In this document: positions 10,150-61,900 of the stretch, in pieces | Position numbering within the stretch: the stretch's first letter is position 1 | Layout: each line of letters begins with the position of its first letter | NCBI RefSeq assembly: GCF_963676685.1 | Contig: NC_092349.1 | Coordinates: 77,004,001-77,068,000 of the forward strand | Direction of reading: 5' to 3' | Origin: Mytilus edulis | Taxonomy: Eukaryota | DNA length: 64,000 bases | The notes under the pieces: generated by a model | Database searches by the model: none | Told to the model about the DNA's origin: nothing | The model's input: the letters and a program-made list of their open reading frames with translations, nothing else | Made by a program: the position numbers and the translations under genes

Positions 10150-10485
10150 GTGGTGCCTGAGATCACCCTGTTTTTTTTGTTTTGGTTGGTGCTTGGTGTC
10201 TGAGATAATTCCTGGTCTTTGGTAAGGTTGGTGTGTTGTGTCTGAAATCAACCCTGGTCTTTGGAAGGGTTGGTGCTTGGTGCCTGAGATAATCCCTGGC
10301 TCTCAAGTTTGGTTGGTGCATGGTGCCTGAAAACCTCTTAGGTCTTTGGTTGGGTTGGTGCTCTTTGCCCTAGTTCATGCCTGTTCTTTGTTTTGGTTAG
10401 TGCTTGGTGCTGGAGATCATCCCTGGTCTTTGGTTGGATTGGTGCTTGATGCCTGAGAACCTCTTGGGTCTTTGGTTGGATTGTT
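10150..10485. repeat. Degenerate ~37-bp tandem repeat
   Basis: Recurrent ggtgcctgaga(t/a)...ccctggtctttggttggg/ttggtgctt, ~9 copies. Confidence 0.8.
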
Positions 10486-13400
10486 GCTGTACAATATTTT
10501 GTTATCAGTGTAGACAATTTTCTGTCATTTCTTATGGTTATGTGTTGTCTTATCTTTTTTCACCACATGGTTTAATATCGGCCCTTTGGTATATTCCTTT
10601 TTTGTGTATCTCTTGTTTATCATTGTACCCGACTGTTTGAATTTTTAGGATAATTGTAGAAATGCTATTAGCGATATGCTATTCCTAGATGTTCCAGGAC
10701 ATGAATAACTTCTTGATTACACGATGTGCTGCTTCATTTAAAAAAGGTGAAAGTAAGATGTCTCATGTGTTAAATTTTGTGAGGTCACTGGAATACTTCT
10801 TGTGTTCCAGGGTGTTCTGTCTCAAATAACACCAGTTAAGACTTTTATTGATTTTGTTCTGTGGGTTTTCTCTCATTGACAAAAATACACAAAAAGACAG
10901 AAATAATAAATACCGTATACCTATACATCTTTGTAAGAACTCTGAAATGGATATGAAGAAAAAAGATTAGTAATTTGTCACTTCCATCACTGAAATGGAC
11001 ATACAGAAATTTATATGCCACTTTTCTTCATCTGTTACAACAGAGCCATACTCTAGGGTCTATGACTGAGGTTGCATCTACAACAAACAAAAATTGTAAA
11101 TTATTAGTGTTTGAGAACGTTGCATGACTGAAACATCCTCTCTGCTGCATCTGCAAAAAAATCTGTAGTGTTTTGGAGAACGTTGGTGTCACTTTCATCA
11201 AACGGGCCCTTTAACAAGCTCATGGTAGAGTGATCTTGTTACTATTGTATAGTGCTGCGGAAACTATGCGCTACCCTCCCTGGCCTAGTACAACGGAGTC
11301 TATTCAAGGTCTATGACTGTAACATCTCCCTGCTGCAATCTGCAAAATTCAAAATTATAAAATTAAACATCTGTTGGTGAACTCTAAAATGAAACATAAA
11401 TAAATATACAACATTACATACGGGCATATAAGAATAAAATCAATTGAATTTTATTCTATTTTCTTTAAAGTATAATTCAAAATTTAATTTAATTTTTTTT
11501 TTTAATTAACTTTTTTTACTTTATTTTTCCATGAAATTTAGCATTGTAACTGCTGTGAAAATACCAAAACTATTGCCATTTGGCTTAGTTAGTCTGTTTC
11601 TTATGTTACCTTTTCTGACATGGGACACAGACTTCTTTTTAAATGAGTTTCACTGTGTGAATTGTTTTTCTACGTTGGCTCCTAGAGGTATAGGTGCGGG
11701 TTGAGATCTCTCAAACCTGTTTAGTTAGCGACTGTATTTATGCACCTGTCTTTAGTTAGAACCCTCTGGCCTTTGCTAGTCTTGTATGTTTTTTTAATTT
11801 TAGTTCATTTATATGTTTTTGAGTTTAGTAATACATCCATTTTTACTGAACTAGTACACATTTTTGTGTAGGGCCTGCTGAAGCCTGCTTCCTGATGCTG
11901 AGTTTTCTGGTTGAGTTGAAGAGCCATTAGTGGACTACAGCTGTTTTCTGCTCTTTGGTTGGGTTGTTGTCTCTAACATTATTTTCAATTTTGTATAAGA
12001 CTCATATTTTTTGTTGGAAAAACCGGTCACCAAACCTGCATGTTGTGTGCGGTGGCTCCCTTGTTTCATTTTTTTAGTTTGACATTGTTCTTTTTTTTAT
12101 CTGACCAAGCTGAGCAACCATCTACTACAATGGTACCCATTAAATGTTGCATGCATACAGACCAAACTGAGGTTAAATTATAGTCTTGGAAAAAAATAAT
12201 AAATTAGCAATGTTTTTAGCTCATTTTTACAAAATTTAACTAAAGACTGCTTCCCGCTGGATTTCCCGTTTGAATGGTTTTACACTAGTTTTGGGGCCCT
12301 TTATAGCTTGTCGTTCAGTGTGAGCCACTTAGGCTCCATGTTGAAGGACGTTCATTGACCTATAATGGTTTACTTTTATAAATTGTTATTTGGATGGAGA
12401 GTTGTCTCATTGGCACTCACACCACATCTTCCTATATCTACTTGCTTATTGCAGGTCATTACTTCATTACTCCACTTTAATTTATGTTTATCAAAAATGA
12501 AGTGCTGTTATTTATTGTCTTTTTTATAGCAAATGCCTCTTAATGTATTTTTTCAAACTTTTAAAAAGTGAATGGAAGCTGACACAAATACACAAGATAA
12601 TTACCGGTAAGTAATTTTTTTTTAACAATTTCAAGCTCCTATGTGTATAACATATCAAACCTTAAGCTTAGCTTTACAAATTTGATGGATTCTTTAATGT
12701 TTTTTGAGAGGGTGTGACAATTAAGCTCCTTGTGAAAAAAGCATATTCTAGTATTGCACAAACCATAAGCCTTGCTATCATCAGTAAATTTGGTGAAAAT
12801 ATTAAAATCAAATCTTATTATCATGTAGAAAAAGTTATGCTGCACTTTGTTTAAACTCATTTATACTCTTCAGAAACTAAAAAAAAATCAGTCAAAGTCA
12901 ATCAAATGTTTAGCATTGACAATGCATTGAACATTTCAATAGAACTAACATACACAAGGTCTTGATGACTCAAGAGGTCACAGCCCATGAAACAACCAAC
13001 AATGACAAAATGCTTTCCATGACCTCAACCAAGTCATCACTAAGGCCATTCAACTTCAATAAACATTTTGTTTGTCTTAGTCAAAGTCAAAGTGCAGTGC
13101 TAGTGAAATAGTCTCAACAGAGTAGAAATGAGTAAAAAAAAATTAATATTAAATGTTTTTGAAGATATTTGAACATTTATAAAATGATATTTATTTCAAG
13201 ATGTAGGACACACATTGGACATTTTAGTGTGCTGATTTGGGTCTCCATGCTGTGGTATTTTGTTAGAAGAATGGCATCCTACATCTTAGCCTTGGAATTT
13301 ATTTTGGAAAATGAAAAAAAAAATCTTTTGTTGATGCAAGCAAGCAAAAGGCAATTTAATGTAAACAATTTCTGTATTTCTTTTATCTTAGTTATCAATT

Positions 13401-16952: not shown

Positions 16953-18896
16953 GAACTAACAAAACAAGACACACCCTCGGTATTAAAACTACTCATAAAA
17001 TTTGTTTGACCACAGCCTTGTCCAGTTGTTGAACAATAAACTAAGATCTCAAATCGAGCATAAAAAGGTCTGATAATACATTTAATATGAAAAATGACAT
17101 GAGTTTCCTTTAATCATGGATACTGGTTTTCAGGTAGATGTTTAATAAGTGAAGAGTTTACGAACGTCGGACCGACGCCTAATGTTGTTATACATACATG
17201 CATAATGAAATATTGGTATGCAATATATTTTGTTTACCCCCTTTCCAAATCATAAAGTACGTGGCTGTTTTTCTATTCAATAAATTACAATATTCTTGTC
17301 ATTTGATAGACTAAGGGAGCTACCATTTGAATTTTTTTTTTTTGGGGGGGGGGGGGGGGGGCTTGGATGAAATTTGAAAAAATAGGCAGGACAGGAGTTT
17401 TGAGTAAAATTATAAAGGCAGGATGAGACACTTTGCCAAAAAAAGGCAGGATGACAATTAAGTTAAAAAAAAGTCAGGATAAACTAATAAAAAAAAGGCA
17501 GGACCGAATAGAGTGAAAAATAAAAAGGCAGGACAGAGTTTACAACTAAAAAAAAAAGACAGGACAAAATTTTTCATCCTAGCCACAAAAAAAACACCAT
17601 ACGATTGCGCCAATTAGAAGAAAAATGACTTCCCTACTCCTTTTTTGAAACATATCTTCTTTCTGCTGCTGCATGGGTACTTCCCAGTTTAATGTATGTA
17701 GTAGCTTGTAACTTCATTGTATTGTCCAAATACACAAACATTTAAGGTTGAAACGCATAAAACAGTTCATAATAATTCCTATTAATAACAAAGCCCATAC
17801 GCATTGTGAGAACAAGGCACTGTGTTATCAACATATGTAGCCAAAACATTATCAGAAAAAGCTTCTATGTTCTTCTCTATTGGTATATCTTTATTAAATA
17901 TTCAACAAAGCAATATTTTTTTATTCTCTCTTTGTACATTGACTGTCTAATGCATTTAAAGTCATTTCTCTTCAGATGCTCATCTTCATGGTGAAAGATC
18001 TCCGAACATACGATACTTTTTAAGCCAAAACTAAGAAAAAAATATATATTAATCGTTTATATCTATGATAGATATGTGTACGGGTAAATTGGCGCAAATA
18101 AGTTTCGAATATTGGCGCAATTGATACATTTGGGAAAAAAAATTGGCGCAAATGATACCCCTGAAAAACTGTAATTGGCGCAAAAGGACTGCTGCCATTT
18201 TAAACTGCATGGTTGTAAATTGATTGGCCTCTAATTAATTTTTGTTTTTATAACACTTAATCTGTTATATTTTTTTCAACCTATGCCAACATATTTTCAT
18301 TCAATTTTAAACCTTAATTTCAAAATGTTGGCATAGGTTGAATGAACCGCCACTGGATTCAAAGAAAGGGGGCGTGAATGGTTATGGTAGAAAAAGAAAC
18401 ATCACTGTCAGCTATTGATTTTTTTTCGATCAAAAACGGGCGTAATCCGACTCGTTCTGGAACAAGAAAGAAGGAATATTTTCTATCCATCTTTTTTTGT
18501 TTTTAGGCCCTTACCCTTCCTACCCAGAAAATAGCTGCCTTACTTACTCAAAATCTTTTATTGTCCTGATGTGATTTTTTTTTTATTCAGACTAATAAAC
18601 ATCTGATACTTAAATTTCTCACGTCGGGAAATAGTTACCGCCTCGGGCCGTGGTCCTCATAGCCAGTCAATAAGTGTATAATATTGAACTAACCAAACTC
18701 CTTGACGATGATACATTAAAAAATAAAAAAGTTCAATGAAAAATTAGTTAAAAGACGCGTGTACCGAATTTCCCGCCAATTTTATGAAAGATTACTGTCA
18801 TGAGTTATTTTTTCTTTACTGCACCTTCAATCGATTTACTGTATTGTATAGACACATCAACTGGACTATTCCTATAAAATAGTAATTATATTTACA

Positions 18897-21800
18897 ATGG
18901 CAGACTTAGCCTTGGGAACATGGAAAATGGCAGAATCTCATAATTTTGATGATTATATGAAAGCATTGGGTAAGGTATTGGGTAGATGTAATGTAGTATT
19001 TCTGATAATGTAAATAATGTAAAATTTTAGATAATGTATTAATAATATTATGGAGTGCATGTTTTCATTGTGTACTCTTAAAACTGAATTTATCAGCTGG
19101 ATATCTATTTAATTATTGAATTTGGAAGATAAACTTATTATATGAATATTTTCTAGTGACGTTAATTTATTTATATTTTCCTCTGTTGTTAGTATACGTG
19201 GTTAAAAGTGGCTACTTCTTAAGTGGAGATCAAAGGTTTTTACATATGAATTTGAGAGTGTATGGTACACGTGTACGATATCATATTAAAGATGATCATA
19301 ATCTAATGCACATTTTAATGCACGAAACCAACCTAAAACAAATGGAGAAGATTAAATGCGCATAATTATATCTGTGCATTTGTGGAAAAGGATGTAAAAA
19401 ATATACCGTATGATTCGACAGTTTTATTTCTAGACAAGACTATACAAATACTTTATTAAAGTTTCACCACTTGTTACATATAAAATATATAGCATTGTTA
19501 AACACAAGATAACAACACGAACCACTCTATAGAGAGTTATGAGAGACTATAGAACATTTTTTTAGATATAATACAAATGCAAGTCAATTATCACGAGTAT
19601 AAAATATATGTTTGCTCTAATAAAATTTCATTGCAGCGTTTTGCAGCATAAAAAAAACTTATTTTCATTTTCAAAAAGAAATATCAATGTTTGCTTACCA
19701 GACATGTAAAAAAATCTCATCAACAATACGAGTATGACAGTTTGTCTGACAACTCATTGTTTCTCATAATAATATGGAATTTAATTGATTTTGTTTTCGT
19801 ATTTAATGCAATATACGCCATTATTTACTCGACCCTGTTTAAAGAAATACAGTCGTATTTTTATATGTTGTTTACTATGATATTTTGTTTCGCTACGTTA
19901 GTCAACTTGATAACCGATGACCATTATATAAGTCATTTATCTTCCTGTACTGAGGATAGTCCGGTGACTTTTCACCTGACCTGTCAAATCAAATGGACAC
20001 AAATGTAATTAATATAGGGCACGACCCCTTCCAACAATTACTCTATTAGATAATAGATACACGGTCAGCTTGATCTGGAAGTTAAAAGTAATGAAATGCA
20101 AACCTCCTTTAACGCCCATTTTCCTTATAGAGAAATTCAATTAAAACGAAAAAGTGAAATTCAAAATGCTTCAGATGTATAGCTACGATGATATGTCAGG
20201 GAAAAGTTTTTCAAAACAGTAGTATAGATAATTGACATGTTTTCTAAAAAAAATGCAGTTTATTCATTGAAAAGTGACGACTCAACAATGCTCTATGTGA
20301 TTTGATATGGTGCATGTCCAACAAGAACTGTAATTGATATGCAGTTAATATTTTTCTTTCTTTTGAAAAATCAAAAGTGGTAAAAACATTAAATTTCCAA
20401 ATCGTGCGCGCATATGTTACAACGGCAAATTATTTCAGATATAAATCAAAAGTGTTATGTGGTATACTTCAAATGCGACAGCAATCCGACAACATTCCAC
20501 GCAAATTAAAGACACAAAAATTAACACACGTACCGTTGGCAGACCAAGAAATTGTCACAAAGGGCCAACTGACTGTCAAAGAGGGGACCCGCTCCTGTCA
20601 TGATTCAGTGGTTCTTATTCGCGTTAGACATTTGTTATTTATGCATGAAATATTGGCCACTGAACTTGACACAAATACAAATTAATCATCAACTATACAT
20701 GATTTCATCCATTGAAAAGTGACGACCAAATTGATTAAGTATGATGTCAAATATTGATACTTGTTATGCAGTCCATATTTTTGAAAAATCTAAAGGGGTG
20801 ATAACATTAGTACCCAAAATCTTGCATATAATTATTACAGCATAGTATTTTGGATATACATAAAAAGTTATGTGAGGTATATTTCAATGCTAAATTAAGC
20901 AATACAACAACACCCACGCACATAAAAGACAGATTAACACAAGGTAGACATTTTTTCATTTATGTATGAAATATTGGCCACTGAACCTGAATCAAATACA
21001 AATCAATTATTAATTATGCATGATGTTTTTAGGTGTCGGGTTAGTAATGAGAAAGATGGCAAACATGGCCAAGCCAACAATAGAAATATCTGTGGATGGT
21101 GACAACTGGACCATCAAAACTATAACTACTATAAAAACAACAGAGATTACTTTTAAACTTAATGAAGAATTCAATGAAACTACAGCAGATGGACGAAAAG
21201 TGAAGGTAACTAATAGACAACTTAAAGGCTATAAATTGGATCCTGTTTCTATGAGAGATGACACGGGGCGCTCATTTCCAAAATTTTCTCCATACTCCAC
21301 TTTTTTACTCACTTCATCCCACACCTCAACGTTTTACCTACTATATCCCACATCCCCACTTTTTCCCTATATCACACATCCCCACTTTTCTCACCTCTTA
21401 TATATCCCATTTCTGAAAGTGTATAGAATGGCAAATGGGATATTTTCTGTAGACTTACTCTAAGAAGAAATATCATTCTTGATTGTGTTTTGTTTAATAA
21501 AGTTCATCTTAATTTTCGTTTCAGGTATAGTCCTTTTTGCATGAAAAATGTTAAAATCATGACTCAACTTGAATAACTATATGTTTTCAAAATTTACGTG
21601 AATGCATTTTAATTTATTAAAAAAACCCAAAAACATCCAACATTTTGGCTCGTATAAAATTAAATTGGGAATAAACCCCAGCCCAGAGATGAAAGAAATA
21701 TTACAATTCATTGCTCATGCAGAATAGTGTATGACTAAAAACCAATGAAATTTTTAAGCACCATTATGTATCTCGATAAAAATGGACTAAAAGCAAAAAA

Positions 21801-24800
21801 AAAAAAAATCAAAACGTCATCGCATCACAACAGTGACCGCACCGTATTCAAAATGGAGTAAATAGTTATCAAAAGTAACAGGATTATAATTTTATACGCC
21901 AGACGCGCGTTTCGTCTACATAAGACTTATCAGTGACGCTCAGATCAAAATAGTTAAAAAGCCAAATAAATACAAAGTTGAAGAGCATTGAGGATCAAAA
22001 ATTCCTAAAAGTTGTGCCAAATATGGCTAAGGTAATCTACTCCTGGGGTAAGAAAATCCTTAGTTTTTCGAAAAATTCAAAGTTTTGTAAACAAAAAATT
22101 TATAAAAATGACCATATAATTGATATTCATGTCAACACCGAAGTGCTGACTACTGGGCTGGTGATACCCTCGGGGACGAAACGTCCACCAGCAGTGGCAT
22201 CGACCCAGTGGTGTAAATAGTTATCAAAAGTACCAGGATTATAATTTTATACGCCAGACGCGCGTTTCGTCTACATAAGACTTATCAGTGACGCTCAGAT
22301 CAAAATAGTTAAAAAGCCAAATAAATACAAAGTTGAAGAGCATTGAGGATCAAAAATTCCTAAAAGTTGTGCCAAATATGGCTAAGGTAATCTACTCCTG
22401 GGGTAAGAAAATTCTTAGTTTTTCGAATCAAAGCGCTGTAAGCACTGTAGGCAGTTAACCAAAAACCAAGGCAAACATAATTATGAAAACTGTGGCAATG
22501 TTGCTTCAATTTTGTTTTTAAAGATTTAAAAGAACAAACATTAAACATTCATATATAATTGTACATTTATGTTCATTTAATGAATTAATCATTAAGGCAA
22601 ATAATTCCTATTTTATCAAGGTTTTCAATAGCAACGTATATATCAAGTATATTTTTTTTTCATGCTTATGAGTCTCGAGTCAGCAGTGGTACAAATTCGC
22701 AATGATTGCAGTTCTTCTAGTTTATCGTAATTTTTTGTATTAGTTGACTGATAGTATTTCAAGTTGACTTTAGTACGAGCTTGTAAAAGTATGAATAGAC
22801 TTGCTTCTCTGGAAAGAAAACTGAGTTTGTGTTCTACAGTACAAAAGTTATGAGACACAAATCAGAAAAATGTTTACTACTACAGGGATCAATAGTGAGG
22901 TCTGACTGACCTGTCCATAGTAAATGTAAATGACTCCCACCTTCAATCCAAGTCCATGATGTCTAAGTTTGGAATAAAATGACAGGTGTTAGGTCTAGCA
23001 AAGTGATATGCATATGTGACGCCTATGAGATTGATCTTGTATGTCATTCAATCTTTTTGAAATCAAAAACAGGAATGAATATGGTTTAGGTATTAGTATC
23101 CCAATCTTTTACCTCAAAACACACACAAGAGGGTGTGAGTGACCCCAGGGACTACCCCTATTTTTCATTTGATTTTTTATATTGTCCCATACATGAATAT
23201 ATATGGTTTAGGGGTGGGGGACCCCAGTGACTTCCCCTATATTTCATTTGATTTGTTATGTTTTCCAATACATGGATATATATGGTTGAGGAGTGGGGAT
23301 CTCATCTGTTTCCAAGTTATCAAACAGGATTGGGTAGGGTGACCATTAGGAGTCTCCCTATATTTCATTTGATTTGTTCTTTTGTCCCATACATGAAAAT
23401 ATATGGTTTAATTTATGGTTAGGATCTCGACTGTTTTCAAGTTCTCAAACAACAGGAGGGGTGGGATGACCGCAGGGATTTCCCCTATATTTTATTTTAT
23501 TTGTTATTTAGTCCCATACATGAGTATATATGGTTACATGGTGAGGATCTCGACTGTTTCCAAGTTCTCAAACATGAGGGTGCAGTGACCCTAGGGACTC
23601 CCCCTTTAATTCATTTGATTTGTTATATTGTCCAATACATGAATATATATGGTTTATGGAGGGGATCTCAACCGTTTTCAAATTCTCAAACAGGAAGGGG
23701 TAGAGTGGCCCCACGAACTCCACCTATATTTCATATGATTTGTGTTATTGTCCCATACATGAATATATATGGTTTAGGGGTGGGGATCTCGACCGTTTCC
23801 AAGTTCTCAAACAGGAGGGGTGGGATGACCCACAGGGACTCCCCCTATATTTCATTTGATTTATTATATTGTCCGATACATGAATATATATGGTTTATGA
23901 TTGGGGATCTGGACTGTTTCAAAGTTCCCAAACAGGAGTGGTGGGGTGACCCAAGGGACTCCCCCTGTATTTCATTTGATTGGTTATATTGTCCCATACA
24001 TGAATAAATATGGTTGAGGGATGAGGATCCCGACTGTTTCCAAGTTCTGAAGCAGGAGGTGGTGGGTGACCCTAGGGACTTCACCTATATTTCATTTGAT
24101 TAGTTATATAGTCCCATACATGAATGTATATGTTTGAGAGGTGGGGATCTCATCCGTTTCAAAGTTATCAAACAGGAGGGGGTAGAGTGCCCCCAAAGGA
24201 CTCCACATACATATAATTTGCTTACATTCAGGTATCATATAATCTAGATGCACTATATGTGTAAAATAAGAAACTTCTAGCTATTTTAACTGACCCATCA
24301 AAATTGAGAAAAAAAAAATACCCATCTAGTAATATGTTTACACTTTAAAAGAATCTAACTTGCTTTACCAACATTTATTACTGATAAAGAAAATTTATAC
24401 TGTCACCAACACCATATATATTGTTAGATATACTGTTCCCAGCTGTCACAAAGACTCACATTGAGTTTTTTTACATTAAAATTTGTCAAAAAGTAATTTT
24501 GAGTTTCCTATGGATACCTATGGATCTTCAGAACGCTGGCACTCTTGCACCATTATATTCTGCTCTACTTCATCATCATTGTATTTAATTGTACGTTTCT
24601 CACATTTTCAGTACAAAATATTTTTAGTTTTTTCATTCTTTTACATATATCTTTTGGTTTTCAATTCTAGTGTTTATATTTATTTACCATGCAAAGATGT
24701 ATTTTGTCATCTGTCTGATTTTTTTTAAAGTTCAAAGATCGCCAAAACCCGGAATTACCCATATCAGCTTCCGGAATCGGATCCGATTTTAGAATTTTCT

Positions 24801-27530
24801 TCTCATGTCAGCCATTTTGTTTTCAATATTGTTTTTGTCAGATACGATTTTACTCGAATTTACACATTATTTGTCGGCAATTTTCTGTATAAAGTTAGCG
24901 GTTGAATAAAATGAACATCGCTGTTATGAATAATAATGCTAAAAACAAGTTTTGAGATCGTTTATTAGGAGACTTTGGTAAAAAGGTTTGCAAAGTTATT
25001 TTTTTATTTCCTCTCAAGTCGTGCATGTCGGGCGTAGCTAGTAACCAAGTCAAAAGTCCGACTGCAAAAGTGGAAGTTCGAAGACCTCGGACAACCGCTA
25101 ATTGAACCCCTGCCTCCAAATAGAAAAGGTACAAAAATTTGCCGCCAACAGCATGAACAGTGGAACTTATTTTAAGACTACTGACGTAGTTGACTACGTA
25201 TTGACGACAAACAATATTCCTACGACTTTTGCCATTTGGGAAATCTAAACTACTTGTCTTTATAAATTTTCGGTGATTAAACATTTCATACATTTGTTCT
25301 TTGACAGCTTAGCCAAAATCACAGGGGATAATAAACTACATAAAGATTCCTAATGTGCTCTACTTCCTATGTGCAACTTCAAAACTTTTGGATAAATCGA
25401 CGATCATTTAAGGTTTTTCTGATTATATTTTTTGTAATCAAGAATTAAAAGTATGAAAAAACTGTCCAATTAGTTATGAATAACATAACATCCAGCTAGA
25501 TAACAACAATGGCACATATTTCAGCATTTATTGGGTAGAACACAAATTTAGGGTGCTCGCATTAGGCAGCTTAACTGCCTAAATATTCAAAGTTTTGTAA
25601 ACAGAAAATTTATAAAAATGACCATATAATTGATATTCATGTCAACACCGAAGTGTTGACTACTGGGCAGGTGGTACCCTCGGGGACGAAACGTCCACCA
25701 GCAGTGGCATCGACCCAGTGGTGTAAATAGTTATCAAAAGTACCAGGATTATAATTTTATACGCCAGACGCGCGTTTCGTCTACATAAGACTTATCAGTG
25801 ACGCTCAGATCAAAATAGTTAAAAAGCCAAATAAATACAAAGTTGAAGAGCATTGAGGATCAAAAATTCCTAAAAGTTGTGCCAAATATGGCTAAGGTAA
25901 TCTACTCCTGGGGTAAGAAAATCCTTAGTTTTTCGAAAAATTCAAAGTTTTGTAAACAGAAAATTTATAAAGTAGAACCAGTCAAACTTTAAGCAGCATT
26001 TAAAGTGAGTACAGTGTAGTACTTTCATGCTGTAACCAATAAAAAGTTGTAGAAAAGAAATGTACCACAATACCTATGCATGCATCAAATCGTGACAACA
26101 AACGGAACCAAAAGCAACCCGCGCCCTTTTCGAAATTCGTTCACTTATCTCTTTTTACGGTAGTGTTCACTTATTTTGGGGGTTGGCAATTGTGATAATT
26201 GAAAAAAAGATATAATCGCGTGTCTTTTCGTATTCAATAAATAAACCTTCACCAAGAACTCTCTGTGCCAAGTTTGGATACACATAGAACATGTAGAAAA
26301 AGTTTAAAAAAATTTAGAAAATTGGACATAACAAGATCGATCTCAATATCAACCGAAACCATTTCATGAATGCATTTTGCTAGCATATAACGATTCTGTG
26401 TCGCTGACCAAATGGTGGAGCTTATCGATCATTTATAGCAACCAAAAATAAGGTCTAATCATATGAATTCCGTTATCAATCAAGTGGAAGTTAGTATAAA
26501 TCATGAAATGGTTCCAGGATATAAGTTGTTAAATTATGCACTATGTCCGATCAGAAGCATTGGCGTTTTCAAAACAATCTAATAAGGCTTTTGATATAAA
26601 TCATATGATTATGTTACAGAGTATAGCACGATTGGACGGTAACAGATTAGACATTGACCAGAAGGGAGACTGTAATTCACTGATATCACGAGAATTTGAT
26701 GGCAATACAATGACGCTGGTAAGTTATATGTCATTAGATATAAGAAGATGTGGTGTGTGAGCCAATGAGACAACTCTCCATCTAAGTCACAATTTCTAAA
26801 AGAAAAACCATCATTGGTCAAAGTACGGATATCAACACGGAGTTCCATACAAATCAGAGGCGAATTAAAGGGGGGTGCAGGGGCCCGCCCCCCCCCCCTT
26901 TTGGGAAAAAATTGGTTGCTTATATTTATGGAATCACTGAAGTGTGACTGGAGCGGGCCCCCTCTTAGGCAGTCAGTGGACCCCCACTTATTAAAATTTC
27001 TAGATCCGCCAGTGTTAATGTGTATTTACTTGTATTTTTATCAATGAAAACCTCAGTACTGGGATTTTAAGTACACAAAGTTTATAGAAAGACATTATTT
27101 GTACAGTATCTCTGCGATAAACCACAACTACAGCGCCAGCGTAGTTTGTTCGAGTTTTGACCATGTCGTCATTTTATGTATGTCATTTTGTTCGTATTTC
27201 AAGAGTAACAAATTCACTCTTGCAAAATCGATATGCTGGAAGAACTGGCATATAAAATACAAATGTAAAAAGTATTCTTTGATATGCATTGGCATATATA
27301 TAGAATAGTTGGGATTCCACTTCGTGTAAAACCATGTAGTATTTGATCACTTTTGAGTAATGCCTTCCAATTTGTCCAATTATTTGTATGACAAAACACG
27401 AACACATATTACTCCCATTAATCTTGTTAATTTCTTATGTTTCTTTATTTATTAATTTTAGAAACTAGTTGCATATGAGGGCGACAAAGAAGTTACTTGT
27501 ACAAGAAAATATCTGAAAGCTGAAACATAG
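18897..27530 (+). CDS. FABP: Fatty acid-binding protein (iLBP/FABP family), 137 aa; exons 18897-18969, 21033-21205, 26620-26718, 27462-27530
   Basis: Spliced with GT-AG introns: [25 protein letters not shown]|[57 protein letters not shown]|[33 protein letters not shown]|[22 protein letters not shown]. GxW and ETTADGRK signatures, R...RxY carboxylate-binding triad, canonical FABP exon layout (73/173/99/69 nt). AATAAA at ~27672. Confidence 0.95.
20265..21020. repeat. Two-copy diverged tandem duplication in FABP intron 1
   Basis: cattgaaaagtgacga at ~20265 and ~20710; tgaaatattggccactgaac at ~20646 and ~20967. Confidence 0.75.
21897..21938 (-). ncRNA. Minimal type I hammerhead ribozyme motif, copy 1 (core CUGAUAA variant)
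   Basis: Minus strand: CGTCA CTGATAA GTCT tatgt AGAC GAAA C GCGC G TC TGGCG. Helix I CGTCA/TGGCG, helix II GTCT/AGAC, GAAA, palindromic minimal helix III, GUC cleavage triplet. Confidence 0.8.
22252..22293 (-). ncRNA. Minimal type I hammerhead ribozyme motif, copy 2
   Basis: Identical to 21897-21938. Confidence 0.8.
22428..25582 (+). mobile_element. ~3.15-kb non-autonomous insertion, Helitron/Helentron-like
   Basis: Splits a 355-bp repeat unit with no obvious TSD; begins TC and ends CTAA (CTRR); TAGGCAGTTAA at 22448 is the inverted copy of TTAACTGCCTA at 25571; terminal hairpin TAGGCAG-cttaa-CTGCCTA; internal tandem array. No transposase ORF seen. Confidence 0.6.
23100..24215. repeat. ~120-bp minisatellite, ~9 copies, inside the Helitron-like insertion
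   Basis: Recurrent cccatacatgaatatatatggttt...gggatctcgactgtttccaagttctcaaacagg at ~120-bp spacing. Confidence 0.9.
25583..25971. mobile_element. 355-bp retrozyme-like repeat (right part, ~1.1 units)
   Basis: Resumes (attcaaagttttgtaaac...) exactly where the left part stops (...tttttcgaa); nearly identical sequence. Confidence 0.8.
25762..25803 (-). ncRNA. Minimal type I hammerhead ribozyme motif, copy 3
   Basis: Identical to 21897-21938. Confidence 0.8.
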
Positions 27531-35537: not shown

Positions 35538-38500
35538 ATGCCTGCTAAGAAAAGAAAGTCACAAGAGACAGCTGATAGCAAAGAAACTGTTAAAGACAGT
35601 CCGACGAAAAAATCAAAGAAAGCCTCAGAAGCAGACGCTTTCAAACTCATTGTTGAATACTGGTATGAAACAGGTTTTTGTCTTTTTTTGCCAGAGCTCT
35701 AGCTTTAAATCTTCAATTGTGATAGTAAACATAACCAACCATGATAACCATAATTGTTAAGAGTTTAAATCTAAGGAAACTTTTCATAGTAGTATAACAT
35801 TTGACACCCACATATGCAACTATTCCAGTCATAATTAGGTTCGATAACTCTGTATGTGACTGGTTTAATTATGGTTATGTAAAATGTACTGGTTACCCAA
35901 GTAATAATTTCAAAATATATATATATAGATATTGCATCTTTGTTTCAACCCATCCGTGGTTTCCTTTCGTTGATATAAAATATTATCATTAAATGATTTC
36001 ATAAACAATCGTATAATACTAATATATATATTAAGTCTTGTCAAAATTTACATCGTGATTAGGTCACGTTGCCATGTTTGTTTTGTTTGATCACGTTGAT
36101 GACTTAATTAATATCTCCACAATCTTGCTTTATCCTTAATTATCATACGAGTTACAATAACGTGTCATATTTAATTGCAATACAAACAGTTAAATCTTAT
36201 TGAATTATTTGCATGTGTAAACTAAGTGTCGAACATCCTCTACGTTTGAAATTATTTGGTCGCCATTTTGTTATATGTAACTTCGAAATTTTATCAAAAC
36301 AAATAGCATGTATCCACTTTCACAGAGGGAAATAGTGTTTAAATATATGCTGCATTAAGGTAAGACAATTATTGAAAAGACATGCATCTAACAATTTTAC
36401 GATTTTCATCGTACAAATCTTCAAAAATCTATATGTCCATGTCGCCCCACGCTATCAATGTTCTAAACTGCATGGTCGGTGCATGTAAATCTTTATTTTT
36501 AGTGTGAGAGACTGTTTCTAATAAATATATTGAAGAACATGTGAAAAAAGAAATTTCGTAAGTACAAAAAGACACACTTTGATAAATATTTGAAATATTA
36601 CATTTTGATTTATAACTAAATGAATACCGGCATGTCGTGTCGTTATGAACCTTCAACAGTGTCCGCCATTTTGAAAATATTGCTGAAGACTGCCAAAATA
36701 TGAACTTTTCAAACAAATTTCGAAGCAAAAAGTTTAATACCTGAACTGATATGGTTTGCCATTTACTTTAAATAAATATGTTGTCGATCTTTTTAGAGGT
36801 TGGAAGGATATAAGTAACAATAAATTAATTGAGAAAATTGATTTTACAAAAAGGTCCCATTGCAATTTTGTCGAGTTTTAACGAAGATGTCAACGGAGGC
36901 TGTGTGGCTATGTCACCTCAATTTTCAAACTTATTTCGAAGCACGAAATCATATTTCTGAACTGAAACTTAAAACATATTTAATTGTAAAAATTTATAAA
37001 CTGTAAAACGCGGGGTTGGAAGGAAAAATATACTTTATAACAAACAAGTTATGACCGTTTTATCTATGTACCCCGTTCACTTTCATTGATAATCTATCGG
37101 CCATTAATGATATACAACAGAAGTGTAAAAGTCACGTGATGACGGAGATAGTTGGATATGAAATTGGAGTTTGTAATTAAGAGATTCAACCCCCCCTTTT
37201 TTTTTTTAAATTTGTTACATTCTAATATAGTTTACATTTTCCAAGATTAATCAATATTTTACTATTAATAGGGTTTTTTTTTTTTTTTTTAAGTTTCCTT
37301 AGTTATACTCATATAACATGTAAAGTATGAATTGAAAGAGGTTTAACAGTTTATAGGATAACTGCACTCATCAGAGTGAAAAGTACTTGCAGTTCAAAAA
37401 AGCACATCAATATGATGAGGTCAATAACCATCAACACAAAAGTTGTTATTCTTTTTAAGAAAAAAAAGATATCAAAGTAATTCCACAAGAATTTCAACAA
37501 CATGCTATCCAGATAGCCTTACTGCTGTAAGGATCATCAATATACTGATTTAGATCATATTGTAACTAACATTGACTAACAAATCGAGCATCATGATGTT
37601 TCTAGTTTCAATTGCATTTTTGTAAAGTTATAATCCTATAAATTCTTTTGTTTTCAATTTCAGCAAATCCTGACAAGTATTCAAGCGCAGGGCTGAAACA
37701 TTAGTAGCAGACTTGCGCCAGACCTTTGGTGAGGTAGAAGTTGATTTCAATCCTTCCAAACCTCGCCGTGGAAGTTTTGAATTTACTCTGGTTAAGGGTG
37801 GAAAGGGTAGGTTTATTTGAGAATAACTGAGTGACATCCGTTTTACATGTTTACTAAATAGATTTATGGTCCTGTCACGAAAAAGTCATATCAATGTACA
37901 TTGTATAACTTAATAAAAAATTATGAGGCTTTGTTTAGTAATTGGAAATAAAGATACATTATGTAGATTTATAGTTAATTGGTTACAAAAATGTTTCCAG
38001 GTTAACGTAAATATTCACATATTCCCACTTTCACACTCCAGGATCTTGTTGATCTTATAATTCATTTGTCCAAATATTTTTGTCACACTTCCCACTTTCA
38101 CACTCCAGGATCTTGTTGATCTGATATTGCATTTGTCCAAATATTTTTGTCACACTTCCCACTTTCACACTCCAGGATCTTCTTGATCTGATATTGCATT
38201 TGTCCAAATATTTTTGTCACACTTCCCGTTTTCACACTCCAGGATCTTGTTGATCTGATATTGCATTTGTCCAAATATTTTTGTCACACTTCCCACTTTC
38301 ACACTCCAGGATCTTGTTGATCTGATATTGCATTTGTCCAAATATTTTTGTCACACTTCCCACTTTCACACTCTAGGATCTTGTTGATCTGATATTGCAT
38401 TTGTCCAAATATTTTTGTCACACTTCCCACTTTCACACTCTAGGATCTTGTTGATCTGGTAATTCATTTGTCCAAATATTTCTGTCACACTTCCCACTTT

Positions 38501-40456
38501 CACACTCTAGGATCTTGTTGATCTGATATTGCATTTGTCCAAATATTTTTGTCACACTTCCCACTTTCACACTCTAGGATCTTGTTGATCTGATAATTCA
38601 TTTGTCCAAATATTTTTGTCACACTTCCCACTTTCACACTCTAGGATCTTGTTGATCTGATATTGCATTTGTCCAAATATTTTTGTCACACTTCCCACTT
38701 TCACACTCTAGGATCTTGTTGATCTGATATTGCATTTGTCCAAATATTTTTGTCACACTTCCCACTTTCTCACTCCAGGATCTTGTTGATCTGATATTGC
38801 ATTTGTCCAAATATTTTTGTCACACTTCCCACTTTCACACTCTAGGATCTTGTTGATCTGATAATTCATTTGTCCAAATATTTTTGTCACACTTCCCACT
38901 TTCACACTCTAGGATCTTGTTGATCTGATATTGCATTTGTCCAAATATTTTTGTCACACTTCCCACTTTCACACTCTAGGATCTTGTTGATCTGATATTG
39001 CATTTGTCTAAATATTTTTGTCACACTTCCCACTTTCACACTCTAGGATCTTGTTGATCTGACATTGCATTTGTCCAAATATTTTTGCCACACTTCCCAC
39101 TTTCACACTCTAGGATCTTGTTGATCTGATATTGCATTTGTCCAAATATTTTTGTCACACTTCCCACTTTCACACTCTAGGATCTTGTTGATCTGATATT
39201 GCATTTGTCCAAATATTTTTGTCACACTTCCCACTTTCACACTCTAGGATCTTGTTGATCTGATATTGCATTTGTCCAAATATTTTTGTCACACTTCCCA
39301 CTTTCACACTCTAGGATCTTGTTGATCTGATATTGCATTTGTCCAAATATTTTTGTCACACTTCCCACTTTCACACTCTAGGATCTTGTTGATCTGATAT
39401 TGCATTTGTCCAAATATTTTTGTCACACTTCCCACTTTCACACTCCAGGATCTTGTTGATCTGATATTGCATTTGTCCAAATATTTTTGTCACACTTCCC
39501 ACTTTCACACTCTAGGATCTTGTTGATCTGGTAATTCATTTGTCCAAATATTTCTGTCACACTTCCCACTTTCACACTCTAGGATCTTGTTGATCTGATA
39601 TTGCATTTGTCCAAATATTTTTGTCACACTTCCCACTTTCACACTCTAGGATCTTGTTGATCTGATAATTCATTTGTCCAAATATTTTTGTCACACTTCC
39701 CACTTTCACACTCTAGGATCTTGTTGATCTGATATTGCATTTGTCCAAATATTTTTGTCACACCTTCCACTTTCACACTCTAGGATCTTGTTGATCTGAT
39801 AATTCATTTGTCCAAATATTTTTGTCACACACATCTCTGAAGTTTATTAACAGATGGACTTCATATTTGGTGATCAGTAGCTTTTACAGCTAATGAGTTA
39901 TGAAGTGTTAAGTGTTTTTTATAGCTGTCTAGCATCATCTTCCTCTTTGTCAATACTTTTAATATGTCAATATTCAATATACAATTTTCCAATGCCACTG
40001 GAAAGAATGACTTCATATAATTTGGTCTGCAGCCTTGGCAGCCATGACAAATAAATAATGTGACAAACACTTCTTTCAATATGAACAATTTTACTGTATA
40101 TCAATGTTGCATTCTTGTAAAAAAAACACTGGCAATAGTAATTGATGTTTAACGACATTCCATGAAAAACCTAATTGCTTCAAAATGAAAACGTTTTCAG
40201 AAAGTTGAAATGAAGTTGTGTTTTTTCATTTTGCAATAAAATAATGCTATTGTACAGAATAATATTGGTGTCAGAATTTGCGCAATATCTTGGACGATAC
40301 AAATTATTGCAACAGTAACATCCTCATTGCATTATTATTTTTTTTTATTTTACAGAAACCGTAATATGGACAGGAGTAAAGAAAGGACCACCTAGGAAGA
40401 TGAAATCCCCCGAAACACCAGATCTAATTATTGAGGCAATCAAAAAGAATCTCTAA
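35538..40456 (+). CDS. SELENOH: Selenoprotein H, 122 aa; exons 35538-35662, 37664-37806, 40356-40456; Sec codon TGA at 37671-37673
   Basis: MPAKKRKSQETADSKETVKDSPTKKSKKASEADAFKLIVEYC|KSUQVFKRRAETLVADLRQTFGEVEVDFNPSKPRRGSFEFTLVKGGK|ETVIWTGVKKGPPRKMKSPETPDLIIEAIKKNL*. Basic N-terminal NLS-like segment, CxxU (the Cys codon is split TG|C by intron 1), and the SelH motifs NPxKPRRGSFE and WTGxKKGPPRK. SECIS present downstream. Confidence 0.95.
38020..39830. repeat. 67-bp tandem satellite, ~27 copies, in SELENOH intron 2
   Basis: Unit cccactttcacact(c/t)aggatcttgttgatctgatattgcatttgtccaaatatttttgtcacactt, highly homogeneous. Confidence 0.97.
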
Positions 40457-43934: not shown

Positions 43935-44592
43935 TTAAAATCTTTGGTTTACTGGTATAGTATTGCTGTTTATAAATGCTTGGAATCTTAGTGGTCAAGA
44001 GGTCTAAGTAGACAATCTTTGGTTTACTGGTATAGTATTGCTGTTTATCAATGCTTGGAATCTTAGTGGTCAAGAGGTCTAAGTAGACAATCTTTGGTTT
44101 ACTGCTATAGTATTGCTGTTTATCAATGCTTGGAATCTTAGTGGTCAAGAGGTCTAAGTAGACAATCTTTGGTTTACTGGTATAGTATTGCTGTTTATCA
44201 ATGCTTGGAATCTTAGTGGTCAAGAGGTCTAAGTAGATCATCTTTAGTTGCTGTTCATTAATGCTTGGAATCTTAGTGGTCAAGAGGTCTAAGTAGACAA
44301 TCTTTGGTTTACTGGTATAGTATTGCTGTTTATCAATGCTTGGAATCTTAGTGGTCAAGAGGTCTAAGTAGATCATCTTTAGTTGTTGTTCATTAATGCT
44401 TGGAATCTTAGTGGTCAAGAGGTCTAAGTAGACAATCTTTGGTTTACTGGTATAGTATTGCTGTTTATCAATGCTTGGAATCTTAGTGGTCAAGAGGTCT
44501 AAGTAGACAATCTTTGGTTTACTGGTATAGTATTGCTGTTTATCAATGCTTGGAATCTTAGTGGTCAAGAGGTCTAAGTAGATCATCTTTAG
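43935..44592. repeat. Composite 75/60-bp minisatellite (~9 units)
   Basis: Shared core atgcttggaatcttagtggtcaagaggtctaagtaga with two alternative spacers; produces the repetitive 238-aa minus-strand ORF in the track. Confidence 0.93.
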
Positions 44593-46364
44593 TATCACAG
44601 TCAACACTAAGATTGTGCATTCAATTCCAATCTTAGTTTACTAGGATTGCCATAATATGAAGGTTTGGATGGGGTTAAATGATTAAAGAATAATGCCCTT
44701 AAAAAATGAAGACCATTGGTTTTCCTGTTTAAATTGTTTTACACTAGTCATGTTGGAGCCCTTGTTAACTTGCTTTTGGATGTGATCCAATACTAAGGGT
44801 AAGGGTTGAAGGGCTTAGGTTGTAATTATTGAGTTGGAATATAATGAAATGCTGCCATAGTTAAGTTTTTAAACAGTACCATAAGTACTTTATGTCATGG
44901 CTAAAACAAAAGAAGAAAAAATAATATCATAAAATCTTTTTATCAAAATCAAAAACAATTACAGTTTCTAACAATTGTATAATTATACACATGAATTCAT
45001 TTAAATATAAAACTTGTCAATTTTAATACCACTTAATTTATGAAACAAACTATTGCAAAACACAGTAAACCCTTGTTATAAAGCTCCTTATGGTATAAAA
45101 CCACTAATTCAAAGCCCCATTGCTTTCTATGTTAAATTCTGCAATTTCAAGCATTTATGGCTACTTTGTCTTAAGTTCAAATAAAGGGGCAGTTATTTCA
45201 TGTCAAAACTACCTTATCCTGATTTGTGCTGAAAGAATCAACATACCTTTAATTGCATATTAGAGCCTACTGGTTCCCCCAAGTTTGATAGTACAAAAAC
45301 AGGAACTTCTGATCTGAACAATAGGCCAAATGTGCCCTCCTATTAAAATTTCATATTCTTCTTTATTATTCAAGTAAAGCTTTTAACAAGGGTTCTGCAG
45401 TGATCCCAAGTGCCAAAGCTTTCATTTGATACAAAAACTACCAAAATATTCCCACTATTGACAAAGATACAGCTATGCGTAGGAACTATTTTGTTTAAAA
45501 TATGTACTACTTTCTTGTATGTTCTTTCCGACCGTGCCTGAATTAGTGGTTCTATACCTTATGTTATCACCACATTGCTATAAGAATTATTTGAAAAAAG
45601 TTTCATGAAATATAAAATGCTACTGACATACAAATATATGCTGCTCAATCTCCTTAATATAATATCAAAACATTTAATATATTTCACTAACTAATAAACA
45701 ATTTTCTAAACTGTAAAAGGACTAGTAAATGATTTAAAAAAATGTATTGCACCTAGACAAATTATGATAAATATGTTATTCCAGTTAGAGAATTCTTGAA
45801 GGATGTGGCCTTATCCATAAATCCTAATAACAAGAAGAAGTACTGCCAGCAAAGCTCACAAGATGATTCCAAACACATCCCACATTAACCAAATCAATTT
45901 TAGCAAATCACATCCTTGCCATTGGTTAATGTTGGATGTGTTTAAAATCATTTTGTGAGGTTTGCTGGCATTACTTCTTGTTCTTATTAAAATTTAAAAG
46001 ATAAAGGTTCAAAACACAAAATGAGAGATGGACAATCATATGGGTCAGATTCAGAGAATGGCCAAACAATAAAGTAAATAATGCGAGTGATTTAGTGGAA
46101 GTTTCTTAAAATTCTGTGATAAAATTCTGGAGCTTTTGCAGATACTATATTTTTAGGTAAAGATTGCATGAAATGCAATCAAAACCTTATGGGATTGACG
46201 GGATATCTAAATCTTCCAAGGCTGATCACTACCTTTTTGATACACAAAATATAGTGCATTGATCATAACATTCTATACATATCCATGAACAGCAATTTTA
46301 ACTAAGTTTAAGGATACTATAACAAGGTTTAACTATAAAAATAACACAGTAAATGACTAAGCTA

Positions 46365-58903: not shown

Positions 58904-61900
58904 ATGCCTATTGTGCAGGTGACAACTAGTCTAAATAAAGGACTGATTCCTACAGAATTTGCCAAGAAATTTTCGGCGTTTCTTGCTGAGACCTTGGACA
59001 AGCCAATCGAGGTAGGTATTAATATAACCAAGAACTTATACCTGTGAATTATACATTATGCTCGCCCCTTTTTGTTAATTAACCATGTTAACCGATTTTG
59101 ATACTTGATTTTTGCACTTCACATTTTATATTGATTAACTATATAACTTTGCCTTAATTAGACAAACTCTGAAACTGAATAACTATTCTTAGGTGTGTAA
59201 GATTGATTGATTGTTAAATGCTTAACGTCCAGTGGCAAACAGTGGCGGATCCAGAAATTTTCATAAGTGGGGGCCCACTGGCTGCCTTAGAGGGGGCCCG
59301 ATCTCGTCACGCTTCAGTGATTCCCTATAAAAGCAACAACAAAATTTCTCAAAGGGGGGGGGGGCGGGCCCCCTGCCCCCCCCCCCCCCCCCCCAAATCC
59401 GCCTCTGGCAAATATTTCATGCATATTCAGGACAAAGGTGCGTAGGATATAACGTGATGAAATGTCTCCAAAGTCATGTGGTTACTGTATCAATATACAG
59501 TTGTTGATTTATTTTTACGCTATATAACACTGTCACTGTGGGTTCAATTTATCGATTTACTCGAAACAGTTTGAACAGGGACGATATTTTCTTAGATTGT
59601 TGTCTAAGTTTAGTGCTCTTGATAAACATTTACTCTAGGGGTATTTTCTTATCACTGTACAGGTCTCTGCCTGGTTATGTTGATCAGCGTCTTATTCAGA
59701 CTTTTAATAACATGAATTACTGTAATCATTTATTGCATCTTCCATTTAAGCCTTATCTTAACAATATGTGCATGTAAATCTTTTTGTACAAAAGATAACA
59801 GTAGTAATCACCTGTGGTGCGTTAGTGTGTAAATCTTCTCTTTCAGAAGATAACACTGGTAATTACCTGTTATGCTTTAGTTTGTAGGTTTTCCCTTTCA
59901 GAAGATAACAGAAATAATCACTAGTAATGCTTTAGTTTGTAAGTCTTCTCTTACAGAAGATAACATAAGTAATCACCAGTGATGCTTTAGTTTGTATGTC
60001 TTCTCTTACAGAAGATAACAGTAGTAATCACCTGTGATATGTTAGTTTGTAAATCTTCTCTTTCAGAAGATAACAGTAGTAATCACCTGTGATATTTTAG
60101 TTTTTAAACCTTCTCTTACAGAAGATAACACTAGTAATCACCTGTGATGCTTTAGTGTGTAATCTTCTCTTTCAGAAGATAACAGTTGTAATCACCACCT
60201 GTGATTACTTAAGTTTGTCAATCTCTCTTCTAGGAGATAACAGTTAGTAATTGCCTATGATGCTTTAATATGTAGTTCTTCCTTTTCAGAAGATAGCTGA
60301 TGCAATCACCGGTTACTGTTTTAGTCTGTAAATATTCTCTTTCAGAAGATAACAAAAGAAATCATCTTTGAAGTTTGATGCTTTAGTTTGTAAATCTTCG
60401 CTTACAGAAGATAACAGTAGTAATCACCTTTGATGTTTTAATTTGTAAATCCCCTCTTTCAGAAGATAACAGTAGTAATCACCTTTGATCCTTTAGTTTG
60501 TAAATCTTCTCTTACAGAGGATAACATTTGTAATCACTTACGGTGCTTTAGGTTGTAAATCTTCTCTTTCAGAAGATAACATTCGTAATCACCTTTGATC
60601 CTTTAGTTTGTAAATCTTCTCTTTCAGAAGATAACATTTGTAATCACTTACGGTGCTTTAGTTTGTAAATCCCCTCTTTCAGAAGATAACAGTAGTAATC
60701 ACCTTTGATCCTTTAGTTTGTAAATCTTCTCTTTCAGAAGATAACATTTGTAATCACTTACGGTGCTTTAGTTTGTAAATCCCCTCTTTCAGAAGATAAC
60801 ATTCGTAATCACCTTTGATCCTTTAGTTTGTAAATCTTCTCTTTCAGAAGATAACATTTGTAATCACTTATGGTGCTTTAGTTTGTAAATCCCCTCTTTC
60901 AGAAGATAACATTCGTAATCACCTTTGATCCTTTAGTTTGTAAATCTTCTCTTTCAGAAGATAACATTTGTAATCACTTACGGTGCTTTAGGTTGTAAAT
61001 CTTCTCTTACAGAAGATAACATTTGTAATCACTTACGGTGCTTTAGTTTGTAAATGTTCTCTTTCAGAAGATAACATTCGTAATCACCTTTGATCCTTTA
61101 GTTTGTAAATCTTCTCTTTCAGAAGATAACATTTGTAATCACTTACGGTGCTTTAGGTTGTAAATCTTCTCTTACAGAAGATAACATTTGTAATCACTTA
61201 CGGTGCTTTAGTTTGTAAATCTTCTCTTTCAGAAGATAACATTCGTAATCACCTTTGATCCTTTAGTTTGTAAATCTTCTCTTTCAGAAGATAACATTTG
61301 TAATCACTTACGATGCTTTAGGTTGTAAATCTTCTCTTTCAGAAGATAACATTTGTAATCACTTACGATGCTTTAGGTTGTAAATCTTCTCTTTCAGAAG
61401 ATAACATTCGTAATCACCTTTGATCCTTTAGTTTGTAAATCTTCTCTTTCAGAAGATAACATTTGTAATCACTTACGATGCTTTAGGTTGTAAATCTTCT
61501 CTTTCAGAAGATAACATTTGTAATCACTTACGATGCTTTAGGTTGTAAATCTTCTCTTTCAGAAGATAACATTTGTAATCACTTACGATGCTTTAGTTTG
61601 TAAATCTTCTCTTTCAGAAGATAACATTTGTAATCACTTACGATGCTTTAGTTTGTAAATCTTCTCTTTCAGAAGATAACATTTGTAATCACTTACGATG
61701 CTTTAGTTTGTAAATCTTCTCTTTCAGAAGATAACATTTGTAATCACTTACGATGCTTTAGTTTGTAAATCTTCTCTTACAGAAGGTAACATTCGTAATC
61801 ACCTGTGATCCTTAATGTGTAAATCTTCTCTTACAGAAGATAACAGTTATAATAACCTATGATGCTTAAATTTGTTAATTTTCTCTTTCAGATGATAACA

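What the first reader, a model, noticed from the sequence alone, without database searches (positions are those of the whole stretch)
21858..25971. Retrozyme-like 355-bp tandem repeat with minimal hammerheads, all carrying G8A
Seen in sequence: three identical minus-strand motifs fold as a minimal type I hammerhead with a palindromic GCGC helix-III loop. Established knowledge: short tandem repeats with such hammerheads are the architecture of metazoan non-LTR retrozymes and Penelope-like element ends, which self-cleave, often as dimers, into monomers and circRNAs. The core here is CUGAUAA, not CUGAUGA; G8 pairs with C3 and provides the general acid, so G8A is expected to cripple cleavage. Inference: either a catalytically dead lineage that still amplified, or a variant that is rescued in trans. 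The ribozyme is antisense to the FABP pre-mRNA, so it would not cut the host intron.
Basis: partly seen in the sequence, partly recalled or inferred. Interest (0 to 1): 0.7.

Follow-up and report, generated by a model that had tools for sequence, protein, structure and literature searches.

The report
Dead-core retrozyme split by Helentron
This is one young copy of a very common, already described kind of mussel-type repeat that carries a self-cutting RNA motif; its three motifs share one mutation predicted to disable them, likely inherited from a single copying event, and another jumping element later landed in its middle, so it is ordinary.

Summary
The three minus-strand hammerheads and their CUGAUAA core are real, but they are canonical type I motifs (helices 6/4/2 bp), not minimal ones, and they do not form a lineage. 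They belong to one 963-bp, 2.7-unit array of a 355-bp non-LTR retrozyme in FABP intron 2, split by a 3,155-bp Helentron-type (HINE) insertion. Genome-wide, the wild-type G8 core occurs 15,388 times and G8A 422 times, the same as the context-matched dead mutant G5A (431). Sampled A8 copies are scattered over the tree and mostly sit beside G8 units. The window's nearest relatives (0-0.9% apart) are G8, and at least 97% of family RNA reads carry G8. G8A is the only variant fixed across this array, so it was most likely in the RNA template read round about 2.7 times. Other arrays fix other core mutations the same way. How a mutant RNA became a template (rescue by a wild-type neighbour, no need for cleavage, or DNA conversion) is not resolved. 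This scan has already noted the family, its fixed 3' end and its Naiad-like hairpin on other DNA. Verdict: ordinary; low interest.

The parts
21854..22427 (-). Retrozyme array, 3' piece (1.6 units of 355 bp); the array's sense 3' end lies 48 nt past the last predicted cleavage site
25583..25971 (-). Retrozyme array, 5' piece (1.1 units; starts at monomer position 151); contiguous in unit coordinates with the 3' piece once the insert is removed
21896..21939 (-). Canonical type I hammerhead, core CUGAUAA (A8 at 21928; predicted cleavage after 21902)
22251..22294 (-). Canonical type I hammerhead, core CUGAUAA (A8 at 22283; predicted cleavage after 22257)
25761..25804 (-). Canonical type I hammerhead, core CUGAUAA (A8 at 25793; predicted cleavage after 25767)
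21902..22256 (-). Predicted 355-nt monomer between two cleavage sites; 37% GC; circular fold -77.4 kcal/mol, z -2.3 against 100 shuffles
22149..22211 (-). Predicted G+C-rich hairpin just past the family's fixed 3' end, resembling the 5' region of a Naiad-type Penelope-like element (second copy about 25659-25721)
22428..25582 (-). 3,155-bp HINE-like non-autonomous Helentron inserted into the array at a T-rich site without target duplication
25562..25582 (-). HINE 5' end: subterminal inverted repeat plus its complement (hairpin)
22432..22458 (-). HINE 3' end: subterminal inverted repeat (22448-22458) followed by a short imperfect palindrome (22432-22446)
23210..24204 (.). HINE central array, 120-bp unit x 8.2, 79% matches
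18897..27530 (+). Host FABP gene: exons 18897-18969, 21033-21205, 26620-26718, 27462-27530; GT-AG introns; 138-aa frame without a break; both elements lie in intron 2

Best explanation
A young insertion of an abundant 355-bp hammerhead retrozyme, likely written into FABP intron 2 in one reverse-transcription event from an RNA template that already carried G8A, and later split by a Helentron-type element. Shown: the array is one 2.7-unit stretch interrupted at a single base step; G8A is its only array-wide variant; the family is G8, is transcribed on the ribozyme strand, and its arrays have a fixed 3' end and scattered 5' ends. Inferred: a Penelope-like reverse transcriptase (probably a Naiad) starts about 41 nt past the cleavage junction on a circular or multimeric RNA and runs round it, so any template variant appears in every unit. 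G8A is one such chance variant; it is predicted to cripple cleavage by breaking the C3-G8 pair, so this locus is probably a dead end.
For: Removing 22428-25582 restores the unit without loss or duplication (22427 equals unit 22072; 25583 equals 22073). G8 15,388, G8A 422, G5A 431, C3U 334, U7C 240, U4C 130. A8 is polyphyletic (50 of 189 rows; 41 changes vs 44.3 shuffled) and the window copies' nearest neighbours are 13 G8 copies at 0-0.9%. In 59 A8 loci, 2 of 24 adjacent pairs are both A8. The window array has 1 fixed, 7 single-unit and 0 partly shared variants; 38 young arrays hold 32 private array-fixed non-core variants, predicting 1.1-3.4 core ones against 2 seen. Two-unit arrays fixed for U4C, C3U and U7C also exist. 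36 of 38 young arrays end 33-50 nt past the cleavage site, with starts from 1 to 325. RNA reads at 22283 carry G8 in 387/398, 631/636, 86/86 and 899/901.
Against: G8A activity was not measured here or in any paper I read; only G8C and C3G loss is cited. Both core-fixed young arrays are G8A (window and L221), although the A8 query favours them. The U3-A8 double is 20 vs 9.2 expected under independence (p 0.0013), though scattered, with no tandem pair among 8 loci examined. The HINE is at best about 97% identical to the 20 copies fetched while the array units differ by about 0.7%, a mild tension for the inferred order. Target duplications of 8 nt or more are rare (4 of 37 vs 1 of 37 control; none at the window). 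No circle was shown for this genome.
Confidence: 0.8

Rival explanations
1. G8A arose once in the DNA after insertion and was spread to all three units by gene conversion or unequal crossing-over before the HINE landed.
For: Most A8 copies elsewhere are single mutations inside G8 arrays (22 of 24 adjacent pairs mixed). Partly shared variants occur in some long arrays (L195, L222). Local amplification by unequal crossover is the model discussed in the 2026 preprint.
Against: None of the 7 other variants in this array is shared by two units, so conversion would have had to spread this one site only.
Confidence: 0.2
2. G8A RNAs are dead as enzymes but are cut by wild-type partners through a swapped palindromic helix III, circularise, and so propagate as freeloaders.
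For: The double-hammerhead structure evaluates at -29.5 kcal/mol against -5.7 for one monomer. Dimer cleavage is described for short palindromic helix III. All-mutant arrays exist for G8A (window, L221, L092, L150), U4C (L269) and C3U (L270). This route is compatible with the best explanation and would supply its template.
Against: No excess of G8A over G5A, no A8 clade, and at most 0-3% of reads are non-G8. Cleavage was dispensable for insertion by a purified Penelope-like enzyme in vitro, so rescue is not needed. The mussel hammerhead already self-cleaves in a single cloned repeat (0.1 per min).
Confidence: 0.25
3. G8A marks a distinct amplified subfamily, dead or working by an altered core.
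For: 422 genomic copies; 12 of 50 sampled A8 rows have only A8 nearest neighbours.
Against: Same count as G5A; 5 of 25 G5A rows show the same neighbour effect; the tree test is not significant (fraction of shuffles at or below observed 0.09); L221 carries A8 on another haplotype.
Confidence: 0.04

Closest known systems
Mytilus galloprovincialis non-LTR retrozymes (Cervera and de la Pena 2020, PMC7229834; parts 1-4 of 6 read, supplement not readable)
   Same: Type I hammerhead in 350-390-bp low-GC tandem repeats, thousands of copies, highly transcribed; construct Mg353 is of like size.
   Different: This locus carries G8A in all units and is split by a HINE. About 15,000 exact cores here against about 5,000 reported. 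Sequence identity to the published clones could not be checked. The parts read do not report a fixed 3' end.
Canonical metazoan type I hammerhead, Rfam RF00163; contrasted with min-HHR of Penelope-like elements (Cervera and de la Pena 2014, PMC4209133; passages read)
   Same: Helices 6/4/2 bp with palindromic loop 3.
   Different: C3-A8 mismatch; the natural variant described there is the compensated U3-A8. It lacks the long helix II and short helix I of min-HHRs.
Penelope-like elements, including Naiads (PMC8557442, passages; PMC11167929, passages and second half of main text; bioRxiv 10.64898/2026.07.22.740005, parts 1-3 of 5)
   Same: 30-40-bp tail and internal start of reverse transcription resemble the fixed end 33-50 nt past the cleavage site; one Naiad-type locus shares the adjacent hairpin. 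The preprint already argues that animal retrozymes are non-autonomous PLE derivatives.
   Different: The repeat unit is 355 bp and non-coding in the published family; Naiads lack canonical hammerheads.
Cg_HINE non-autonomous Helentrons of the Pacific oyster (PMC7492417; passages read)
   Same: 5' subTIR plus inverted repeat, central tandem array, 3' subTIR plus palindrome.
   Different: Longer (2.3-3.8 kb in 14 copies), 120-bp central unit; a 5' microsatellite was not looked for.

Membership tests
Metazoan non-LTR retrozyme | Type I hammerhead in each unit of a 150-450-bp tandem repeat | tested here: met
   355-bp unit, one motif per unit, arrays up to 18.6 units
Metazoan non-LTR retrozyme | Low GC (under 45-50%) | tested here: met
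   37% GC
Metazoan non-LTR retrozyme | Dispersed high copy number with signs of retrotransposition | tested here: met
   15,388 exact G8 cores; fixed 3' ends and scattered 5' ends
Metazoan non-LTR retrozyme | Transcribed on the ribozyme strand | tested here: met
   Family level only: strand bias about 6:1 to 16:1 in three stranded runs; FABP exon reads fall on the opposite side. Next to no reads cross this locus's unique flank.
Metazoan non-LTR retrozyme | Intact catalytic core (C3-G8 pair) | tested here: not met
   Not met at this locus (C3-A8 in 3 of 3); met in the family
Metazoan non-LTR retrozyme | Self-cleavage and circular RNA | not testable with these tools
   Shown for M. galloprovincialis in PMC7229834. 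Reads cross the junction, which fits circles or uncut multimers alike.
Metazoan non-LTR retrozyme | Target-site duplication, when present, longer than 4 bp | tested here: inconclusive
   None at the window; 4 of 37 arrays with a shared word of 8 nt or more vs 1 of 37 control
M. galloprovincialis retrozyme (Mg353 type) | Sequence identity with the published clones | not testable with these tools
   Supplement too large to read; host inferred from size match and a 1.37-Gb genome with 14 large contigs
Minimal hammerhead (min-HHR) of PLEs | Helix II 7-8 bp, helix I 4-5 bp, little or no helix III | tested here: not met
   6/4/2 bp
HINE (non-autonomous Helentron), for 22428-25582 | 5' subTIR with inverted repeat; 3' subTIR then palindrome | tested here: met
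HINE (non-autonomous Helentron), for 22428-25582 | Fixed ends at T-rich sites without duplication, central tandem array, no enzyme frame | tested here: met
   Same left end in 20 of 20 copies, right end found in 14 of 20 within 6 kb; 120-bp array; only two open frames of 90 aa or more (194 aa in the tandem array, 137 aa), not searched against Pfam. The no-duplication rule is partly recalled.
HINE (non-autonomous Helentron), for 22428-25582 | Matching autonomous Helentron | not tested
   No search made

The most novel reading that the evidence does not exclude
Retrozyme RNAs with a dead catalytic core still become circular templates because a wild-type neighbour cuts them through the swapped palindromic helix III, and a Naiad enzyme then copies them round and round; all-mutant arrays like this one are the genomic record of ribozyme complementation in vivo.
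Probability: 0.2. Interest if true: 0.5.

Novelty: new member of a known kind. Interest (0 to 1): 0.17.

Why it matters
As a locus it matters little: one of thousands of copies, probably inactive, antisense in an intron of an intact gene. Its modest use is as a natural record. A variant shared by every unit of a young array supports copying from a repeated or circular RNA template, and arrays fixed for core mutations offer a genome-wide way to ask whether self-cleavage is needed for spread. It is also a clean case of a Helentron splitting a retrozyme array, which makes one insertion look like two.

Tried and rejected
A8 clade: rejected (189 of 223 extracted rows kept after a 72% identity filter; fixed-offset extraction inflates distances for copies with indels; 60 of the first 100 listed A8 places were fetched, all on three contigs, the last 20 chosen mostly for the window's loop sequence). 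Compensated U3-A8 subfamily: 20 scattered copies, a 2.2-fold excess that older copies carrying several mutations could explain; 8 of 10 fetched loci were recovered, none in an A8 tandem. Dimer-circle idea (dead site skipped, giving alternating arrays): L268 and L272 alternate at the core, but L268 has no co-varying site and L272 is a mosaic; not supported. Two independent insertions flanking an older element: rejected by base-exact contiguity. Cleavage ends in RNA-seq: one run has read starts piled at 21904 and 21906 (41 and 51 molecules), 2-4 nt from the predicted site; the other runs laid show no such pile; suggestive only. Empty allele of the insertion: not seen among listed joints, which were swamped by repeats. 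A genome-wide count of adjacent mutant pairs could not be made, so adjacency rests on fetched loci. No RNA holder was on record in the run index. Literature value for G8A: not found; three primary papers were not held. The core positions were mis-indexed by one base and corrected. Weak Rfam microRNA hits at 18265-18352 are far below cut-off.

Full report
Observation. Rfam finds Hammerhead_1 three times on the minus strand, at 21896-21939, 22251-22294 and 25761-25804, each over the whole model at 25.9 bits, below the gathering score. The three are identical and read CUGAUAA in the core. They can form helix I of 6 bp (two G-U pairs), helix II of 4 bp and helix III of 2 bp capped by GCGC, with a possible further 6-bp extension of helix I; this fold is not the minimum-energy one for the fragment (-4.1 vs -10.8 kcal/mol). 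Cervera and de la Pena 2014 define 6/4/1-2 bp as the canonical metazoan type I motif and describe minimal motifs otherwise, so 'minimal' is wrong. The host is an intact FABP gene on the plus strand with four GT-AG exons; both elements lie in intron 2.

One array, not two. Repeat sequence covers 21854-22427 and 25583-25971. The 3,155 bp between them are a separate repeat. Its left end is the same in 20 of 20 fetched copies and its right end was found in 14 of 20 within 6 kb; it has subterminal inverted repeats, a terminal palindrome and a central 120-bp array. This is the HINE layout described in oyster. All 20 copies are preceded by AA and all 14 right ends are followed by AAA. Removing the element joins unit base 22072 to 22073 with nothing lost or doubled, apart from one substitution at 25584. 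The three hammerheads therefore come from one 963-bp array of 2.7 units, and 'all three carry G8A' is one event.

The family. The unit matches arrays on all 14 large contigs at 94-99%. Exact core counts: wild type 15,388, G8A 422, G5A 431, C3U 334, U7C 240, U4C 130, U3-A8 20. These patterns count both loop variants of the family. G5A is the same G-to-A change in the same TGA context, at a position whose importance I take from recall; the two counts do not differ (p 0.78). On a tree of 189 copies with positions 5 and 8 masked, the 50 A8 rows need 41 changes against 44.3 +/- 2.1 for shuffled labels, and the window copies' nearest neighbours are 13 G8 copies at 0-0.9%. Among 59 A8 loci, 19 have a tandem neighbour and 2 of 24 adjacent pairs are both A8; for G5A, 0 of 7. 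In RNA-seq under the same species label as the best-matching run, reads at 22283 carry G8 in 387/398, 631/636 and 86/86 and 899/901, and the stranded runs favour the ribozyme strand. Size, GC content, copy number and expression fit the mussel retrozymes of PMC7229834, for which cleavage (about 0.1 per min) and circles were shown; I could not compare sequences.

How the array was made. In 38 young arrays (37 nearest plus the window's), 36 end 33-50 nt past the cleavage site while their 5' starts run from position 1 to 325. A broader sample shows the same peak (64 of 117 ends at 20-60; 43 at 340-355, probably where a short tail was missed in older copies). This is the pattern of target-primed reverse transcription starting inside the RNA, as shown for a Penelope-like enzyme whose start sites give a 30-40-bp tail. 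A start just past the junction means the template was circular or multimeric (inference). Following notes from this scan, I compared the monomer with 30 GIY-YIG loci. One, L247, has an N-terminal endonuclease followed by CxC and DKA motifs, diagnostic of Naiads, and shares the hairpin next to the fixed end (score 56; best of 500 shuffles 50); the other GIY-YIG loci, mostly with C-terminal endonucleases, do not. This is one locus, and the scan has noted the link before. A 2026 preprint already ties animal retrozymes to Penelope-like elements.

Why all three are A8. G8A is the only variant fixed across the window array; seven others are each in one unit, and none is in two. Private array-wide variants are routine: 32 outside the core in 38 arrays, which predicts 1.1 to 3.4 inside it; two are seen, both G8A, and the A8 query favours them. 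The second, L221, is on a different haplotype. Two-unit arrays fixed for U4C, C3U and the tolerated U7C also exist. The simplest reading is a template that carried A8 and was read about 2.7 times. G8A is predicted to cripple cleavage by breaking the C3-G8 pair: G8C and C3G abolish it in a related ribozyme and the double swap partly restores it, and nature uses U3-A8. The acid itself is the 2'-OH, which A8 keeps. I found no measurement of G8A. Three routes could give an A8 template or array: cutting by a G8 neighbour through the 8-bp palindrome (double hammerhead -29.5 vs -5.7 kcal/mol per monomer), copying without cleavage (cleavage was dispensable in vitro), or DNA conversion. The data here do not separate them.

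Results against. The U3-A8 double is about twice the independent expectation. U7C is 1.8 times U4C, a weak hint of selection on templates, confounded by context. The HINE looks slightly older than the array it splits when judged by the copies sampled. Target duplications are mostly absent. Alternating arrays give no clean support for dimer templates.

Verdict. A real but ordinary member of a known family. Interest 0.17.

Noticed in passing
window 22428-25582: Abundant HINE-like Helentron family (737 first-look candidates for its 3' end), 2.3-3.8 kb, 120-bp central repeats, target read as AA then AAA on the plus strand; also transcribed at low level, mostly on its own strand.
   Followed up: yes
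L247 (G000:C5:1352215-1355493), about 50 nt before the first Met: Naiad-type element sharing the retrozyme's hairpin next to the fixed 3' end, with apparent paired changes in the outer stem; 1 of 30 GIY-YIG loci.
   Followed up: partly
L221, L092, L150, L269, L270, L271: Other arrays in which all hammerheads share one core change (G8A, U4C, C3U, U7C).
   Followed up: partly
L268 and L272: Arrays in which a core mutation recurs every second unit (G5A; G8A).
   Followed up: partly
RNA reads at window 21893 and 21941/22296: Loose read ends show a second repeat family that shares the hammerhead but differs on both sides, in line with the two ribozyme families reported for mussel.
   Followed up: no
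L249-L267: A young Penelope-like family with C-terminal GIY-YIG, near-identical in about 19 of 30 loci.
   Followed up: no
window 38022-39830, 59773-61987, 43939-44593, 10151-10488: Other tandem arrays: 67 bp x 27 (96% matches), 55 bp x 40, 75/60-bp composite, 42 bp x 8.
   Followed up: no
window 18265-18352: AT-rich inverted repeat giving weak microRNA-family scores, about 550 bp upstream of the FABP start codon.
   Followed up: no
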